From Naegleria gruberi (lineage: Eukaryota), in NCBI GenBank assembly GCA_000004985.1, contig GG739073.1: a DNA stretch of 8,318 bases. One strand, 5' to 3'. How positions within the stretch are numbered: the first letter of the stretch is position 1; every line of letters begins with the position of its first letter. Shown here piece after piece: positions 2 to 7,644 of the stretch. Position numbers and translations under genes: made by a program. The notes beneath the pieces are model-generated. The model did not search any database and was not told where the DNA came from. It saw nothing but the letters and a program-made list of their open reading frames with translations.

Positions 2-1387
2 AGGTTGTTTGGCCATCCACCAAAAGAATATATAGTGTATAACAAGAGAGAGACCAAGTATGAACTAAAGAAAGGATATACTAATTTCAATTTACAATGC
101 TCTATCAAGAGCGACCAGTATGTCACTAGAAAGGATGACAAGAAAAGACCAAGAAATGAAAAAACAGGTTCCTTAGAAACTTTGGAGGATCTTGTTGAAA
201 AATCCTTTGTAATGAAAAGCAAATTTGATCACAAAGGTAAATTTACTCCTAATTTTTATCCAAACAGATTCAAGTTGAAGGATGAAATATACTTTCAATA
301 CCCAGAGGTGCTAACATTGTTGTTGATGCATACCTTGATAGAGTATGCCAATAATAATGTTGAGTATGTTGAGTACTCGATAAGTGTAAAAGATTTAAAG
401 AACCATTATGACTGTCTCCAACCTGGCAAAGTTAAAGAACTGTTTAAAATTTTCAAAGACGATTACAATCTCATTTTTACAAAATGTGACACTATTGATT
501 TTAAAGATGATAAGTTGATAATAGATTTAAATGAGATCAAGTATTACTTTTTGGGAGCATTCAATAGAGGTAAAACATCATTTTATCCAAATGATGTTAT
601 TACAGGAAGTCAAAAATTTAACTATATGATTTCTAAAAGTGGAGAGGCTTGGTGCAGAGCCTTTCAACCAGAAAGTTACAATGATATCAGAAATCAAATT
701 TCGGCTGAAAACTTTTTAAGTTCTCTCAATATGAATTGTGTACGAACTATTGGATCGGTTGTTGGGTTTGATTGGGTAGGAGATGAATTACTTTACCCAT
801 TCTGTGCTTTTGTATTAAACGAGTTTACAATTCTAGCAAAGAAATACGAGGAGAACACTCAAACTAAATTAGGACTGAGGTATCATTGTGGGGAAAACAT
901 TATTGTTGATCATGAACAGGATGCAAAGTATTTTTTAGTTCATATGGAAATAAGTTACAGGACAATAAGACAATTGGTGGCTTCAAAAACTTTCAATATT
1001 AGATTAGGTCATGGTGTGGGATTTTTGTTAAAATCTACTAATTATGCATTCAGTTCTGAACTAACAAAGAAAGTTCTAAACAAGATGGAAGAGCATGCTG
1101 GCAATTTAAAGGAAGTTACTTTTGAGTGGTGCCCAACCAGTAATGAGTACTTGTTGTTTGACTTCCACGATATTTATCTTCCTAATGGCTTCTCCAATCT
1201 TGTTGTAGCAACTGACAATGACGGAATCATGGATGTGGGTGGTGTTGCAAAAGAGACTGAAAAAGCGGCTAACTACTTACTTAGTATCGGTTATGACAAT
1301 GACTTAAATGAAATCGTGGAAAAGTTAAAACAAAATGCAATCGGTTCAAGATTCATACCAGTAACAGACATTGCTAAGCATGAATAG
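2..1387 (+). CDS. Adenosine/AMP deaminase-family protein (amidohydrolase superfamily, ADA-like). It is 5'-partial, because the ORF is open to the window's left edge.
   Basis: A 460-codon open frame ends on TAG at 1385-1387. There is no ATG upstream within the window; the track's 'M' at nt 5 is a TTG. ADA-family signature motifs occur in canonical order and spacing: H-C-G-E at nt 884-895 (cf. HAGE), R-L-G-H-G-V-G at 1001-1021 (cf. RIGHG), E-W-C-P-T-S-N at 1124-1144 (cf. CPxSN), and A-T-D-N-D-G at 1208-1225 (cf. TDDP). About 52 aa follow the last motif, as in ADA enzymes. No in-frame TAA/TAG/TGA occurs over 460 codons. Confidence 0.85.
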   Translation, partial: RLFGHPPKEYIVYNKRETKYELKKGYTNFNLQCSIKSDQYVTRKDDKKRPRNEKTGSLETLEDLVEKSFVMKSKFDHKGKFTPNFYPNRFKLKDEIYFQYPEVLTLLLMHTLIEYANNNVEYVEYSISVKDLKNHYDCLQPGKVKELFKIFKDDYNLIFTKCDTIDFKDDKLIIDLNEIKYYFLGAFNRGKTSFYPNDVITGSQKFNYMISKSGEAWCRAFQPESYNDIRNQISAENFLSSLNMNCVRTIGSVVGFDWVGDELLYPFCAFVLNEFTILAKKYEENTQTKLGLRYHCGENIIVDHEQDAKYFLVHMEISYRTIRQLVASKTFNIRLGHGVGFLLKSTNYAFSSELTKKVLNKMEEHAGNLKEVTFEWCPTSNEYLLFDFHDIYLPNGFSNLVVATDNDGIMDVGGVAKETEKAANYLLSIGYDNDLNEIVEKLKQNAIGSRFIPVTDIAKHE

Positions 1388-2060: not shown

Positions 2061-2129
2061 ATGAAAACCTCATTGATTGCATTAATTGCCTTCATTCTTT
2101 CTTGCCAACTAGCTTTAGTAACCTGCGCA
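2061..2129 (+). other. Predicted signal peptide of 23 aa, with cleavage after TCA.
   Basis: It has a charged n-region (MK), a 17-residue hydrophobic h-region, and a small-residue c-region (T-C-A) before CPPG. Confidence 0.65.
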
Positions 2130-2504
2130 TGCCCACCAGGCATGTACATTGCTAATTCTCAATGTAAGCCTTGCTCACCAGGAAACTATTGTTTAAATGA
2201 TGAATCCAAGCCATGTCCTGCAGGAACCATCAATACTGATGTTGGACAAACCACATGTCGAGCATGTCCAAAAAATTACATTACCAACCAACAACATACT
2301 GCATGCATTCCATGTCATTACAGAACCAATGAAGATTTGACATTCTGTCTCTTGCCAAACACCCCAATGAATGCTTTGGAGATTACTAAAGTAGAAAATC
2401 ATTTGACTAATATCACTGAAGGAGAATCTAACTACTTTTTCANAAAAATCAAATTTGGAAATGGTCAAGCAACTGAACTAGTCACTGTTCAAGAAACTTT
2501 CTCC
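2061..2504 (+). CDS. Secreted cysteine-rich repeat protein (ephrin-receptor-like / TNFR-like CxxGxY repeats). It is 3'-truncated by the assembly gap.
   Basis: ATG at 2061 has a good context. The N-terminus MKTSLIALIAFILSCQLALVTCA is a classic signal peptide. It is followed by 12 Cys in 77 aa arranged as CPPGMY..C, CSPGNYC, CPAGT..C, CPKNY..C, CHY..C. An N-I-T sequon is present. The frame stays open for 148 codons until the N-run begins at 2505. Base 2443 is an ambiguous 'n' (codon X). Confidence 0.8.
2130..2360 (+). other. Cysteine-rich repeat module (CxxGxY / GCC2_GCC3 / ephrin-receptor-like type).
   Basis: A repeating C-P-x-G-x-(Y/I)...C-x-x-C periodicity recurs four to five times. The arrangement is characteristic of disulfide-rich extracellular repeats. 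Confidence 0.55.
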
Positions 2505-5500
2505 NNNNNNNNNNNNNNNNNNNNNNNNNNNNNNNNNNNNNNNNNNNNNNNNNNNNNNNNNNNNNNNNNNNNNNNNNNNNNNNNNNNNNNNNNNNNNNNN
2601 NNNNNNNNNNNNNNNNNNNNNNNNNNNNNNNNNNNNNNNNNNNNNNNNNNNNNNNNNNNNNNNNNNNNNNNNNNNNNNNNNNNNNNNNNNNNNNNNNNNN
2701 NNNNNNNNNNNNNNNNNNNNNNNNNNNNNNNNNNNNNNNNNNNNNNNNNNNNNNNNNNNNNNNNNNNNNNNNNNNNNNNNNNNNNNNNNNNNNNNNNNNN
2801 NNNNNNNNNNNNNNNNNNNNNNNNNNNNNNNNNNNNNNNNNNNNNNNNNNNNNNNNNNNNNNNNNNNNNNNNNNNNNNNNNNNNNNNNNNNNNNNNNNNN
2901 NNNNNNNNNNNNNNNNNNNNNNNNNNNNNNNNNNNNNNNNNNNNNNNNNNNNNNNNNNNNNNNNNNNNNNNNNNNNNNNNNNNNNNNNNNNNNNNNNNNN
3001 NNNNNNNNNNNNNNNNNNNNNNNNNNNNNNNNNNNNNNNNNNNNNNNNNNNNNNNNNNNNNNNNNNNNNNNNNNNNNNNNNNNNNNNNNNNNNNNNNNNN
3101 NNNNNNNNNNNNNNNNNNNNNNNNNNNNNNNNNNNNNNNNNNNNNNNNNNNNNNNNNNNNNNNNNNNNNNNNNNNNNNNNNNNNNNNNNNNNNNNNNNNN
3201 NNNNNNNNNNNNNNNNNNNNNNNNNNNNNNNNNNNNNNNNNNNNNNNNNNNNNNNNNNNNNNNNNNNNNNNNNNNNNNNNNNNNNNNNNNNNNNNNNNNN
3301 NNNNNNNNNNNNNNNNNNNNNNNNNNNNNNNNNNNNNNNNNNNNNNNNNNNNNNNNNNNNNNNNNNNNNNNNNNNNNNNNNNNNNNNNNNNNNNNNNNNN
3401 NNNNNNNNNNNNNNNNNNNNNNNNNNNNNNNNNNNNNNNNNNNNNNNNNNNNNNNNNNNNNNNNNNNNNNNNNNNNNNNNNNNNNNNNNNNNNNNNNNNN
3501 NNNNNNNNNNNNNNNNNNNNNNNNNNNNNNNNNNNNNNNNNNNNNNNNNNNNNNNNNNNNNNNNNNNNNNNNNNNNNNNNNNNNNNNNNNNNNNNNNNNN
3601 NNNNNNNNNNNNNNNNNNNNNNNNNNNNNNNNNNNNNNNNNNNNNNNNNNNNNNNNNNNNNNNNNNNNNNNNNNNNNNNNNNNNNNNNNNNNNNNNNNNN
3701 NNNNNNNNNNNNNNNNNNNNNNNNNNNNNNNNNNNNNNNNNNNNNNNNNNNNNNNNNNNNNNNNNNNNNNNNNNNNNNNNNNNNNNNNNNNNNNNNNNNN
3801 NNNNNNNNNNNNNNNNNNNNNNNNNNNNNNNNNNNNNNNNNNNNNNNNNNNNNNNNNNNNNNNNNNNNNNNNNNNNNNNNNNNNNNNNNNNNNNNNNNNN
3901 NNNNNNNNNNNNNNNNNNNNNNNNNNNNNNNNNNNNNNNNNNNNNNNNNNNNNNNNNNNNNNNNNNNNNNNNNNNNNNNNNNNNNNNNNNNNNNNNNNNN
4001 NNNNNNNNNNNNNNNNNNNNNNNNNNNNNNNNNNNNNNNNNNNNNNNNNNNNNNNNNNNNNNNNNNNNNNNNNNNNNNNNNNNNNNNNNNNNNNNNNNNN
4101 NNNNNNNNNNNNNNNNNNNNNNNNNNNNNNNNNNNNNNNNNNNNNNNNNNNNNNNNNNNNNNNNNNNNNNNNNNNNNNNNNNNNNNNNNNNNNNNNNNNN
4201 NNNNNNNNNNNNNNNNNNNNNNNNNNNNNNNNNNNNNNNNNNNNNNNNNNNNNNNNNNNNNNNNNNNNNNNNNNNNNNNNNNNNNNNNNNNNNNNNNNNN
4301 NNNNNNNNNNNNNNNNNNNNNNNNNNNNNNNNNNNNNNNNNNNNNNNNNNNNNNNNNNNNNNNNNNNNNNNNNNNNNNNNNNNNNNNNNNNNNNNNNNNN
4401 NNNNNNNNNNNNNNNNNNNNNNNNNNNNNNNNNNNNNNNNNNNNNNNNNNNNNNNNNNNNNNNNNNNNNNNNNNNNNNNNNNNNNNNNNNNNNNNNNNNN
4501 NNNNNNNNNNNNNNNNNNNNNNNNNNNNNNNNNNNNNNNNNNNNNNNNNNNNNNNNNNNNNNNNNNNNNNNNNNNNNNNNNNNNNNNNNNNNNNNNNNNN
4601 NNNNNNNNNNNNNNNNNNNNNNNNNNNNNNNNNNNNNNNNNNNNNNNNNNNNNNNNNNNNNNNNNNNNNNNNNNNNNNNNNNNNNNNNNNNNNNNNNNNN
4701 NNNNNNNNNNNNNNNNNNNNNNNNNNNNNNNNNNNNNNNNNNNNNNNNNNNNNNNNNNNNNNNNNNNNNNNNNNNNNNNNNNNNNNNNNNNNNNNNNNNN
4801 NNNNNNNNNNNNNNNNNNNNNNNNNNNNNNNNNNNNNNNNNNNNNNNNNNNNNNNNNNNNNNNNNNNNNNNNNNNNNNNNNNNNNNNNNNNNNNNNNNNN
4901 NNNNNNNNNNNNNNNNNNNNNNNNNNNNNNNNNNNNNNNNNNNNNNNNNNNNNNNNNNNNNNNNNNNNNNNNNNNNNNNNNNNNNNNNNNNNNNNNNNNN
5001 NNNNNNNNNNNNNNNNNNNNNNNNNNNNNNNNNNNNNNNNNNNNNNNNNNNNNNNNNNNNNNNNNNNNNNNNNNNNNNNNNNNNNNNNNNNNNNNNNNNN
5101 NNNNNNNNNNNNNNNNNNNNNNNNNNNNNNNNNNNNNNNNNNNNNNNNNNNNNNNNNNNNNNNNNNNNNNNNNNNNNNNNNNNNNNNNNNNNNNNNNNNN
5201 NNNNNNNNNNNNNNNNNNNNNNNNNNNNNNNNNNNNNNNNNNNNNNNNNNNNNNNNNNNNNNNNNNNNNNNNNNNNNNNNNNNNNNNNNNNNNNNNNNNN
5301 NNNNNNNNNNNNNNNNNNNNNNNNNNNNNNNNNNNNNNNNNNNNNNNNNNNNNNNNNNNNNNNNNNNNNNNNNNNNNNNNNNNNNNNNNNNNNNNNNNNN
5401 NNNNNNNNNNNNNNNNNNNNNNNNNNNNNNNNNNNNNNNNNNNNNNNNNNNNNNNNNNNNNNNNNNNNNNNNNNNNNNNNNNNNNNNNNNNNNNNNNNNN

Positions 5501-6533
5501 NNNNNNNNNNNNNNNNNNNNNNNNNNNNNNNNNNNNNNNNNNNNNNNNNNNNNNNNNNNNNNNNNNNNNNNNNNNNNNNNNNNNNNNNNNNNNNNNNNNN
5601 NNNNNNNNNNNNNNNNNNNNNNNNNNNNNNNNNNNNNNNNNNNNNNNNNNNNNNNNNNNNNNNNNNNNNNNNNNNNNNNNNNNNNNNNNNNNNNNNNNNN
5701 NNNNNNNNNNNNNNNNNNNNNNNNNNNNNNNNNNNNNNNNNNNNNNNNNNNNNNNNNNNNNNNNNNNNNNNNNNNNNNNNNNNNNNNNNNNNNNNNNNNN
5801 NNNNNNNNNNNNNNNNNNNNNNNNNNNNNNNNNNNNNNNNNNNNNNNNNNNNNNNNNNNNNNNNNNNNNNNNNNNNNNNNNNNNNNNNNNNNNNNNNNNN
5901 NNNNNNNNNNNNNNNNNNNNNNNNNNNNNNNNNNNNNNNNNNNNNNNNNNNNNNNNNNNNNNNNNNNNNNNNNNNNNNNNNNNNNNNNNNNNNNNNNNNN
6001 NNNNNNNNNNNNNNNNNNNNNNNNNNNNNNNNNNNNNNNNNNNNNNNNNNNNNNNNNNNNNNNNNNNNNNNNNNNNNNNNNNNNNNNNNNNNNNNNNNNN
6101 NNNNNNNNNNNNNNNNNNNNNNNNNNNNNNNNNNNNNNNNNNNNNNNNNNNNNNNNNNNNNNNNNNNNNNNNNNNNNNNNNNNNNNNNNNNNNNNNNNNN
6201 NNNNNNNNNNNNNNNNNNNNNNNNNNNNNNNNNNNNNNNNNNNNNNNNNNNNNNNNNNNNNNNNNNNNNNNNNNNNNNNNNNNNNNNNNNNNNNNNNNNN
6301 NNNNNNNNNNNNNNNNNNNNNNNNNNNNNNNNNNNNNNNNNNNNNNNNNNNNNNNNNNNNNNNNNNNNNNNNNNNNNNNNNNNNNNNNNNNNNNNNNNNN
6401 NNNNNNNNNNNNNNNNNNNNNNNNNNNNNNNNNNNNNNNNNNNNNNNNNNNNNNNNNNNNNNNNNNNNNNNNNNNNNNNNNNNNNNNNNNNNNNNNNNNN
6501 NNNNNNNNNNNNNNNNNNNNNNNNNNNNNNNNN
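2505..6533. other. Scaffold/assembly gap of 4,029 N's.
   Basis: An uninterrupted N run, probably size-estimated. All ORF-track 'proteins' consisting of X across this span are artefacts. Confidence 0.99.
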
Positions 6534-6573
6534 AAACTAAAATCTCACTAATTTCATTTATCACTTCTCTGAT

Positions 6574-7644
6574 TTACACTTGCTGATTCTTTACAAAATT
6601 ATAAAAATCAATCGTGAATATTGAAATTCTCCATGCATGCTTTCGTTCTGATTGAGATCGATGAGTATTCTCTCTAAATAATTGTTTGTACTCTTCACTG
6701 GAGAGAACTACTTTACAATTCTTGTCAGGAAACTGACTCTGATATAATGGAACGAAATAATTCATGATTTGAGTTCGATTTTTGAAAACATCCACCAGCA
6801 CATAATTTTCTCCTTTCCATTTGACTGAAAATTGCTCAATTCCTCCAAGAACTGGAGCTTCTTCAATATCAACTGGTTGCTTACTAGCTCCTGATTCATC
6901 AACTAATGAAAACGTTGTTTGAGTAGTAAGTAAATTATTCGAAAGTTGTTCATTAGAAACAGGTGAAGTTTTCCTCTTTTTCTGTGCTTTCTTTTTCCTT
7001 GGTTCGTTTTGATTTTGCAATTCAGAATTTTCTCGTTTGTTAGGTGCAGTTTTTAGTTCATAATTTTCTCTCTGCAATTCAGCAATTGTTTTGTGTTGAG
7101 TTTCTAATTCTCTTTCCAATAGATGGATTCTTTCTCTTAGTTGGTTGATTAAATGTTGTTGAGAATCTGCTGCATGTACTTCATGTTGGATGTGGTGATT
7201 GTAGGGAGAATTTGTTGAGAGAATGTTTGTTGGTGATGAAGTGGAAGAATTGAAATCTTTCGTCTACTGTACATGCCCTTCTTCATGCCACATGTGTTGT
7301 GATGGCATGGAAGCGGATGGCAAACTGCAAGACACATTATTAGAAAGATTATTAGAAAGATTATTAGAAAGGTGGAGGACATGATTGTTTGGTAATGTCG
7401 ATCCTTGGAAGTTATCTTGGAATAAATCTCTCAAGTTTGGTAATGGCATGGGTTTCGTAGTCCAATTATCTGAAACATTTACTTGCCGAGAGTCTTCGAA
7501 AGTAGACGAAACTTGTCGTATTCTTGTTGGTGGTGAAACAGATGAAGAATAAACCTCTTGTGATGATGATGAAACTGGATAATTGGATGTAGCAAAGAAA
7601 TTGGCCGAATTTGCACTTCTTTGATTTGGATAGTTAGGAGACAT
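6574..7644 (-). CDS. N/S/Q-rich protein with a leucine-zipper-like coiled coil and basic patch. It is interrupted by one in-frame TAG at 7264-7266, so it is a possible pseudogene or sequencing error.
   Basis: ATG at 7644-7642 is the first ATG after an upstream in-frame stop at 7765-7767, with an A8 run just 5' of it. The frame then runs 126 codons to TAG at 7266-7264. It continues in the same frame, with no ATG for about 160 codons, to TAA at 6576-6574. That is 357 codons in total with one internal stop. It encodes the LSNN repeats, the coiled coil LINQLRERIHLLERELETQHKTIAELQRENYELK, the basic patch PRKKKAQKKRK, and a C-terminal globular-looking region. Confidence 0.6.
7051..7155 (-). other. 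Leucine-zipper-like heptad coiled coil within the minus-strand gene.
   Basis: The d positions read L, L, Q, L, L and the a positions read I, I, L, I, N over five heptads. Asn at an a position is typical of dimeric zippers. A lysine-rich basic patch (6970-6999) lies C-terminal to the zipper, not N-terminal as in a classical bZIP. Confidence 0.45.
7336..7371. repeat. Perfect 12-bp tandem repeat (ATTATTAGAAAG)x3, which codes (LSNN)x3 on the minus strand.
   Basis: Three identical consecutive 12-mers are read directly from the sequence. They are in-frame within the minus-strand CDS. Confidence 0.95.

What the first reader, a model, noticed from the sequence alone, without database searches (positions are those of the whole stretch)
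7255..7275. A single in-frame TAG splits an otherwise continuous 357-codon minus-strand gene.
ORFs 7644..7264 and 7119..6574 are in the same frame and are separated by exactly one TAG at 7264-7266. The downstream ORF stays open for 49 codons right up to that TAG. It has no ATG until roughly codon 160 of its own reading frame, so it cannot be an independent gene. No GTATGT/GTAAGT 5' splice site or TACTAAC branch point flanks the stop. Any intron would also have to be tiny and a multiple of 3, so splicing does not explain it. The possibilities are a base-call error in a draft assembly (the scaffold also carries an ambiguous base and a gap), a genuine nonsense allele or young pseudogene, or programmed UAG readthrough. 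The context is CAG-UAG-ACG.
Basis: seen in the sequence. Interest (0 to 1): 0.55.

Follow-up and report, generated by a model that had tools for sequence, protein, structure and literature searches.

The report
Deletion-made stop in spare Naegleria gene copy
The lone TAG sits exactly where this second copy of a Naegleria gruberi gene lacks 84 bases that the intact copy elsewhere in the same genome assembly has, so it is most likely a broken allele or duplicate (or a draft-assembly flaw), not programmed readthrough.

Summary
A minus-strand gene runs from ATG 7644 to TAA 6574-6576 (357 codons) and has one in-frame TAG at 7266..7264.

The window is a complete 8,318-bp scaffold of the Naegleria gruberi draft assembly. 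The gene is a second copy of NAEGRDRAFT_81602 (XP_002671254, 380 aa, intact, on a 275-kb scaffold). The two match at 349 of 352 aligned positions; one of the three mismatches is the TAG itself.

There are two indels. The window has one extra 12-nt repeat unit. At the TAG, the intact copy has 29 sense codons (Y-27 residues-N-Q) where the window has only TAG. TA from the Tyr codon plus G from a CAG Gln codon would make TAG, so a single 84-nt, out-of-phase deletion explains the stop. I could not obtain the reference DNA, so the junction is inferred from protein.

All relatives carry the N-terminal motif, coiled coil and C-terminal domain in one polypeptide, so this is one gene.

The neighbouring annotated gene on this scaffold ends in TAG. 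The stop is not conserved and its context is unremarkable, so readthrough, recoding and splicing are unsupported.

Best reading: a null allele or young pseudogene copy. The main rival is a cloning or assembly artefact in a 1.8-kb low-coverage contig. This is ordinary.

The parts
6574..7644 (-). Whole interrupted gene: 357 codons including the TAA. It is a second copy of N. gruberi NAEGRDRAFT_81602 and is not annotated on this scaffold.
   Evidence: Searches give the reading frame. Searches show 349 of 352 aligned residues identical to P0001 (XP_002671254).
7264..7266 (-). In-frame TAG, codon 127. This is the point where the intact copy has 29 sense codons (YPPTTERNLFNRTSSCTSSSYGYASIGN + Q). 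It is the inferred junction of an 84-nt deletion (TA|G).
   Evidence: The DNA-level junction is inferred from the protein alignment and was not seen in reference DNA.
7267..7644 (-). N-terminal 126 codons. This is all that would be made if the TAG terminates.
   Evidence: No Pfam hit.
7420..7443 (-). LPNLRDLF, the family's conserved N-terminal motif (LPNF/LxEF in paralogues). It lies upstream of the TAG.
   Evidence: Alignments.
7336..7371 (-). Perfect 12-nt tandem repeat with 3 copies (LSNN units). The intact copy has 2 units, a 4-aa length difference.
6577..7263 (-). 229 codons downstream of the TAG. They have no usable ATG and differ from P0001 at one residue (A188 in the window, T212 in P0001).
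7048..7173 (-). Predicted long helix or coiled coil (residues 31-72 of the downstream part), followed by a basic KKKAQKKRK stretch.
   Evidence: AlphaFold2 model. Conserved heptad-like columns.
6577..6846 (-). Conserved C-terminal domain of about 90 aa that defines the family (…VKWKGENYVL…AWRISIFTIDFYNFVKN…).
   Evidence: 23 invariant columns in 10 sequences. pLDDT is 83-95. Fold matches to Dachshund/Ski DHD and the SMARCB1 winged helix are weak.
6574..6576 (-). TAA terminator, at the same position as the end of P0001.
2505..6533 (.). Scaffold gap of 4,029 N. It leaves the gene on a 1,785-bp contig (6534..8318).
1385..1387 (+). TAG that terminates the annotated neighbouring gene (P0004 = XP_002668417). 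It shows TAG is annotated as a stop for a neighbouring gene on this scaffold.

Best explanation
The window is a small, unplaced 8.3-kb scaffold of the Naegleria gruberi draft genome. On its 1.8-kb right-hand contig it carries a second, nearly identical copy of NAEGRDRAFT_81602. This copy is either the other haplotype of this heterozygous diploid or a very recent duplicate. Relative to the intact 380-codon copy it has lost 84 nt. The deletion is a multiple of three but its ends fall inside codons. It fuses TA of a Tyr codon to the G of a CAG Gln codon, which creates TAG at the junction. Translation therefore stops normally at codon 127. The product is a 126-aa fragment that keeps the N-terminal LPNLRDLF motif but lacks the coiled coil, the basic stretch and the family-defining C-terminal domain, so this copy is a null allele or young pseudogene. 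The downstream frame is still open only because the deletion preserved the frame and the lesion is recent. The intact copy and at least five paralogues in N. gruberi presumably cover the function.

Shown: the two ORFs are one gene; an intact copy exists; the stop coincides with the indel; TAG is used as a stop on this scaffold.

Inferred: the exact DNA junction; the direction of the event (deletion rather than insertion); that the copy is real in the organism; and allele versus duplicate.
For: The window is a whole N. gruberi scaffold. P0004 (EFC35673/XP_002668417, 'predicted protein, partial [Naegleria gruberi]') is 100% identical to ORF1 and sits on a contig of exactly 8,318 bp.

The gene matches P0001 (NAEGRDRAFT_81602, 380 aa, on a 275,174-bp scaffold) at 349 of 352 aligned residues. 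Differences are T19 in the window for S19 in P0001, A188 for T212, a +4-aa LSNN unit, and TAG in place of Y + 27 residues + N + Q.

Tyr codons always start with TA, and CAG is a Gln codon, so one 84-nt deletion can generate TAG.

A separate nonsense change landing next to an independent in-phase deletion would have to hit about 2 of 356 codons, which makes one event much more likely (inference).

The 12-nt repeat-number difference is the kind of variation expected between alleles and is not a base-calling error.

All family members found have the N-terminal motif, coiled coil and C-terminal domain in one chain, so this is one gene.

No protein from this locus is in the databases; the P0001 cluster has one member, so the annotators did not model it.

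The adjacent annotated gene ends at TAG. Across the three coding stretches of the window (the two neighbouring ORFs and this gene), Gln is written CAA or CAG 46 times, and the only stop triplets are TAG twice (this one and ORF1's terminator), TAA once (this gene's terminator) and no TGA.

Naegleria is described as mainly a heterozygous diploid, with heterozygosity reported for N. gruberi (PMC9928731).
Against: I could not obtain the reference DNA of NAEGRDRAFT_81602, so the TA|G junction is inferred from the protein. It requires that Gln codon to be CAG, which is only 8 of 46 Gln codons in this window.

No reads were available. The contig is only 1,785 bp, and the TAG lies 730 nt and 1,052 nt from its ends, roughly where Sanger read tails would meet, so an artefact is not excluded.

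The scaffold is not simply a redundant haplotig. ORF1 has no second copy anywhere in the protein database, so allele versus paralogue is open.

No outgroup covers the indel region, so the direction of the event rests on functional logic only.
Confidence: 0.6

Rival explanations
1. Draft-assembly or cloning artefact. The 84-nt deficit, or only the stop at its junction, does not exist in the amoeba. It arose in a plasmid subclone, from a mis-join of low-quality Sanger read tails, or from a base-call error at the junction of a real in-phase deletion allele.
For: The gene sits on a 1,785-bp contig of an 8.3-kb scaffold that also has a 4,029-N gap and an ambiguous base. The TAG is 730 and 1,052 nt from the contig ends, where read quality falls. 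No independent assembly or gene call with this product is on record.
Against: An 84-nt deletion together with a clean 12-nt repeat-unit gain and two substitutions looks like real sequence divergence, not base-calling noise. The rest of the 356 codons are free of frameshifts and stops. A miscall falling exactly on the junction codon is a coincidence of about 2 in 356 unless the junction itself is the artefact.
Confidence: 0.3
2. Programmed UAG readthrough or natural suppression. Ribosomes decode the TAG at some rate and produce a full-length 356-aa protein from this copy.
For: The frame stays open for 229 codons after the stop and encodes an intact conserved domain.
Against: The stop is not conserved; the intact copy has 29 sense codons there. 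The open downstream frame is explained by a recent frame-preserving deletion. UAG-ACG-AAA matches none of the readthrough contexts I know from the literature, such as UAG-CAR-YYA or UGA-CUAG (from memory). TAG terminates the annotated neighbouring gene. A literature search gave five papers that contain both terms; judged by title and abstract start, none reports readthrough in Naegleria, and none was opened.
Confidence: 0.03
3. A small spliceosomal intron removes the TAG, so the mRNA is continuous.
For: 54 formal GT…AG intervals of 9-400 nt span the TAG and keep the frame. One of them has a GTAAAT donor (7482..7264, 219 nt).
Against: That many combinations are expected by chance in 400 nt. Each one removes sequence that is read as uninterrupted coding sequence in the intact 380-codon copy. 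The best-looking donor would delete the conserved LPNLRDLF motif. The shortest options (9 and 16 nt) are too short for a spliceosomal intron, from general knowledge.
Confidence: 0.02
4. Two separate genes, or a non-standard genetic code in which TAG is a sense codon.
For: None beyond the bare presence of two ORFs.
Against: Paralogues and the intact copy join both parts in one chain. There is no ATG for 167 codons after the TAG. TAG ends the annotated neighbouring gene. Gln is always CAA or CAG in the coding stretches counted in the window.
Confidence: 0.01

Closest known systems
NAEGRDRAFT_81602 (XP_002671254 / EFC38510 / UniProt D2VXH9), 'predicted protein' of Naegleria gruberi
   Same: Same start, same end and same domain order. 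349 of 352 aligned residues are identical.
   Different: The window copy lacks 28 net codons at the TAG, has one extra LSNN unit and two substitutions, lies on another scaffold, and is not annotated.
Heterozygous loss-of-function allele, or unprocessed young pseudogene, left as a separate small scaffold in a Sanger whole-genome shotgun assembly
   Same: There is a near-identical intact counterpart in the same assembly, a single disabling lesion, an otherwise intact frame, and a small low-coverage scaffold.
   Different: The scaffold also carries a gene (ORF1/P0004) with no counterpart elsewhere, so it is not a purely redundant haplotig. Allele versus duplicate is unresolved.
Programmed stop-codon readthrough genes (for example the tobamovirus-type UAG-CAR-YYA context, or the UGA-CUAG context of animal genes)
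   Same: There is a single in-frame stop followed by a long open, coding-looking extension.
   Different: The stop is not conserved even in the closest copy, there is no known stimulatory context, and the extension holds the core domain of the protein rather than an optional tail.
Naegleria-restricted family of LPNF-motif, coiled-coil, C-terminal-domain proteins (NAEGRDRAFT_73755, 73756, 73745, 63351, 79841; N. fowleri FDP41_003939; N. lovaniensis C9374_001186)
   Same: The window gene has all three elements.

Membership tests
Null allele or young pseudogene copy of NAEGRDRAFT_81602 | A near-identical intact counterpart exists in the same genome | tested here: met
   P0001 is 380 aa with 349 of 352 aligned residues identical, on the 275,174-bp scaffold of the same assembly.
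Null allele or young pseudogene copy of NAEGRDRAFT_81602 | A disabling lesion removes essential parts of the protein | tested here: met
   TAG at codon 127 lies upstream of the coiled coil and the conserved C-terminal domain. There is no in-frame ATG for 167 codons.
Null allele or young pseudogene copy of NAEGRDRAFT_81602 | The lesion is explained by one mutational event (84-nt deletion with a TA|G junction) | tested here: inconclusive
   The protein alignment is compatible: Y is the first and Q the last residue replaced. Reference DNA could not be obtained.
Null allele or young pseudogene copy of NAEGRDRAFT_81602 | The variant is present in the organism's DNA, not only in the assembly | not testable with these tools
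   No reads or traces were available. Exact-product look-ups in other assemblies found nothing.
Programmed stop-codon readthrough | The stop codon is conserved at this position in orthologues or alleles | tested here: not met
   The intact copy has 29 sense codons there. Paralogues have unrelated linker sequence.
Programmed stop-codon readthrough | A known readthrough-promoting sequence context lies 3' of the stop | tested here: not met
   The context is UAG-ACG-AAA-GAU. It does not match UAG-CAR-YYA or UGA-CUAG (motifs recalled from the literature).
Programmed stop-codon readthrough | Translation is detected beyond the stop | not testable with these tools
   This needs ribosome profiling, tagging or proteomics.
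Spliceosomal intron spanning the stop | GT…AG boundaries of plausible length that restore the frame and remove only non-coding sequence | tested here: not met
   54 formal options exist, but all remove sequence that is read as coding in the intact copy. The 9- and 16-nt options are too short.
Stop-codon reassignment (TAG as a sense codon) | TAG occurs in-frame within genes and is not used as a terminator | tested here: not met
   The annotated neighbour P0004 ends at TAG 1385-1387. ORF1 has 460 codons without TAA or TAG, and all 46 Gln codons in the counted coding stretches are CAA or CAG.
Naegleria LPNF-motif / coiled-coil / C-terminal-domain family | N-terminal LPN(F/L)xE/D(F/L) motif, central helix and conserved C-terminal domain of about 90 aa | tested here: met
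   Alignments (23 invariant columns in the C-terminal domain). Profile search E-values are 1e-37 to 1e-107.
Ski/Sno/Dachshund DHD or SMARCB1-type winged-helix DNA-binding domain | Significant structural or sequence similarity to the domain | tested here: inconclusive

The most novel reading that the evidence does not exclude
The TAG-bearing copy is a real, expressed allele whose UAG is partly read through, or whose 126-aa N-terminal fragment carrying the LPNLRDLF motif acts on its own, for example as a dominant-negative partner of the family. That would be a functional 'split' isoform in Naegleria created by an out-of-phase deletion.
Probability: 0.03. Interest if true: 0.45.

Novelty: already known. 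Interest (0 to 1): 0.1.

Why it matters
It matters mainly as housekeeping. It explains why this locus has no gene model. It flags the 8.3-kb scaffold as partly redundant with the NAEGRDRAFT_81602 region. It also shows that an in-frame stop in a draft scaffold should be compared with the other copy before readthrough is considered.

If the deletion is real, it is one example of a heterozygous loss-of-function variant in a clonally propagated laboratory strain, within a small, tandemly clustered gene family that so far is found only in Naegleria.

The family itself, which may bind DNA and has no known function, is the more interesting by-product, but it is not the finding.

Tried and rejected
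I could not get reference DNA for NAEGRDRAFT_81602:
- Exact-product look-ups for P0001, P0003, the 126-aa fragment, the 63-aa ATG-started tail and the 181-aa TTG-started ORF all found nothing.
- A JGI metagenome scan with P0001 found no relative.
- P0005, a member of the P0003 cluster, gave a metagenome contig, L001 (ENA ERZ929261). It carries three tandem paralogues from an N. gruberi-like strain but not 81602, and it has no overlap with the window flanks. Synteny could therefore not be settled.

Other tests:
- Intron test: 54 formal GT…AG options, none credible.
- Alternative genetic code: rejected.
- Structured RNA or tRNA: none found.
- Pfam on both halves: nothing above threshold.
- Literature: no paper mentions these locus tags. 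No paper that I could identify from titles and abstract starts reports readthrough in Naegleria. The N. gruberi genome paper is not in the library.
- The afdb50 fold library was unavailable.

Full report
**1. The observation**

On the minus strand there is an ATG at 7644-7642, an in-frame TAG at 7266..7264 (codon 127, context CAG-TAG-ACG) and a TAA at 6576..6574. That makes 357 codons including the terminator. The mechanical ORF list shows the same two pieces, 7264..7644 and 6574..7119.

The first in-frame ATG after the TAG is codon 294. With this strand's composition a stop is expected every 15 codons or so. The probability that 229 codons stay open is about 9e-8, and none of 20,000 shuffles stayed open. 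The other two frames have 10 and 31 stops. The ambiguous base (2443) and the gap (2505..6533) are real.

**2. Where the window comes from**

A protein search with the joined translation found three proteins, all from Naegleria gruberi. The left-hand ORF (5..1387) is 100% identical to P0004, 'predicted protein, partial [Naegleria gruberi]' (EFC35673/XP_002668417). The contig that carries P0004 is exactly 8,318 bp long. The window is therefore a complete small scaffold of the N. gruberi draft assembly. P0004 ends with …AKHE, followed by TAG at 1385-1387.

**3. What the gene is**

The best hit, P0001 (NAEGRDRAFT_81602, XP_002671254, 380 aa), lies on a different scaffold of 275,174 bp in the same assembly. 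The two proteins agree at 349 of 352 aligned positions. The differences are:
- T19 in the window where P0001 has S19;
- A188 in the window where P0001 has T212;
- four extra residues (LSNN) in the window, from a third copy of a perfect 12-nt tandem repeat at 7336..7371;
- at the TAG, P0001 has YPPTTERNLFNRTSSCTSSSYGYASIGN followed by Q, which is 29 sense codons where the window has one stop codon.

The net difference at the TAG is 28 codons, or 84 nt.

**4. How the TAG most likely arose**

Both Tyr codons begin with TA, and Gln can be CAG. A single 84-nt deletion that starts after the TA (or the T) of the Tyr codon and ends before the G (or AG) of the CAG gives exactly …CAG TAG ACG…. It keeps the downstream frame and creates a stop at the junction.

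The alternative is an in-phase 28-codon deletion plus an independent nonsense change or base-call error. That change would have to fall on one of the two codons next to the deletion, out of 356. I therefore treat the stop as a by-product of the indel.

This step is inferred. I could not obtain the reference DNA. CAG is the minority Gln codon here, at 8 of 46.

**5. One gene, not two**

The family was collected with a profile search and an exhaustive HMM search, which found only 18 representatives among 1.84 billion proteins. All named members are Naegleria: six N. gruberi genes, one N. fowleri and one N. lovaniensis. Four N. gruberi genes, including 81602, lie on the 275-kb scaffold. A metagenome contig from an N. 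gruberi-like strain (L001) shows three paralogues in tandem.

Every member found has, in one chain:
- an N-terminal LPN(F/L)xE/D(F/L) motif;
- a variable Ser/Thr/Asn-rich linker;
- a long helix with a basic stretch;
- a conserved C-terminal domain of about 90 aa.

In the window the motif (7443..7420) lies before the TAG, and the helix and domain lie after it. The indel falls in the unconserved linker, where length changes are expected.

**6. Alternatives tested**

- Recoding of TAG. The annotated neighbour ends at TAG. Across the three coding stretches of the window (the two neighbouring ORFs and this gene), Gln is always CAA or CAG, and the only stop triplets are TAG twice (this one and ORF1's terminator), TAA once (this gene's terminator) and no TGA.
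- Readthrough. The stop is absent from the closest copy. UAG-ACG-AAA matches no stimulatory context that I know (from memory). The part after the stop is the core of the protein, not an optional extension. I identified no report for Naegleria from the titles and abstract starts listed.
- Intron. 54 formal GT…AG, frame-keeping intervals exist, as expected by chance. All remove sequence that the intact copy reads as coding. The only decent donor would delete the conserved motif.
- RNA genes. None were found.

**7. Real variant or artefact?**

This cannot be settled here.

For a real variant: the copy differs from 81602 by clean, biologically typical changes (a repeat-unit gain, two substitutions and one deletion) with no other damage. 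Naegleria is described as a mainly heterozygous diploid, with heterozygosity reported for N. gruberi (PMC9928731).

For an artefact: the gene sits on a 1,785-bp contig of a gapped scaffold. The TAG lies 730 and 1,052 nt from the contig ends, roughly where Sanger reads lose quality. No independent data set contains this product.

It is also unresolved whether the copy is the other allele or a recent duplicate. ORF1 on the same scaffold has no second copy in a database of 5.8 billion proteins. The scaffold is therefore not a plain redundant haplotig. It may fill or border a gap next to 81602, or it may be another locus.

**8. Verdict**

The new information is that the stop marks an 84-nt deficit relative to an intact copy in the same genome. 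That removes the case for readthrough and shows that a one-base correction would not restore the reference gene.

My confidence is split as follows:
- null allele or young pseudogene: 0.6;
- assembly or cloning artefact: 0.3;
- readthrough: 0.03;
- intron: 0.02;
- other: 0.01.

The remainder is not assigned. Interest is low.

Noticed in passing
window 7336..7371: A perfect 12-nt tandem repeat (ATTATTAGAAAG on the + strand; LSNN units in the protein) is present in 3 copies here and in 2 copies in the intact copy P0001. It is a small length polymorphism inside the coding sequence.
   Followed up: yes
window 5..1387 (+): ORF1 (P0004/XP_002668417) is an orphan. It found only itself among 5.8 billion proteins, and it has no Pfam hit and no PDB sequence hit. 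By eye, motifs such as HCGEN, GHGVG, WCPTSNEY and TDNDG recall adenosine/AMP-deaminase-type metal hydrolases. That resemblance is from memory and was not confirmed by any tool.
   Followed up: partly
window 2061..2504 (+), running into the gap: This ORF starts with a signal-peptide-like stretch followed by Cys-rich repeats (CPPG…C.PC.PG.YC). It has weak, sub-threshold hits to ELAPOR1-like TNFR and ephrin-receptor-like repeats. The single N at 2443 lies inside it.
   Followed up: partly
L001 2379..6385 (ENA metagenome ERZ929261 contig) and the 275-kb N. gruberi scaffold: The gene family forms a tandem cluster. EFC38506, 38510, 38512 and 38513 lie on one scaffold, and L001 carries three paralogues in a row. 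The family has only 18 representatives among 1.84 billion proteins, and all named ones are Naegleria. It is an uncharacterised, lineage-restricted family with a possibly winged-helix-like C-terminal domain.
   Followed up: partly
L001 245..1714 (+): Next to the paralogue array, an N. gruberi-like metagenome contig encodes a 489-aa protein made largely of (V)EEKKPEPV repeats with a globular C-terminal end. It was not examined further.
   Followed up: no
window 6556..6588: An imperfect 14-16-nt direct repeat (2.2 copies) straddles the TAA of the gene, 23 nt or more from the edge of the 4-kb gap. It is possibly noise, and possibly related to why the contig ends there.
   Followed up: no
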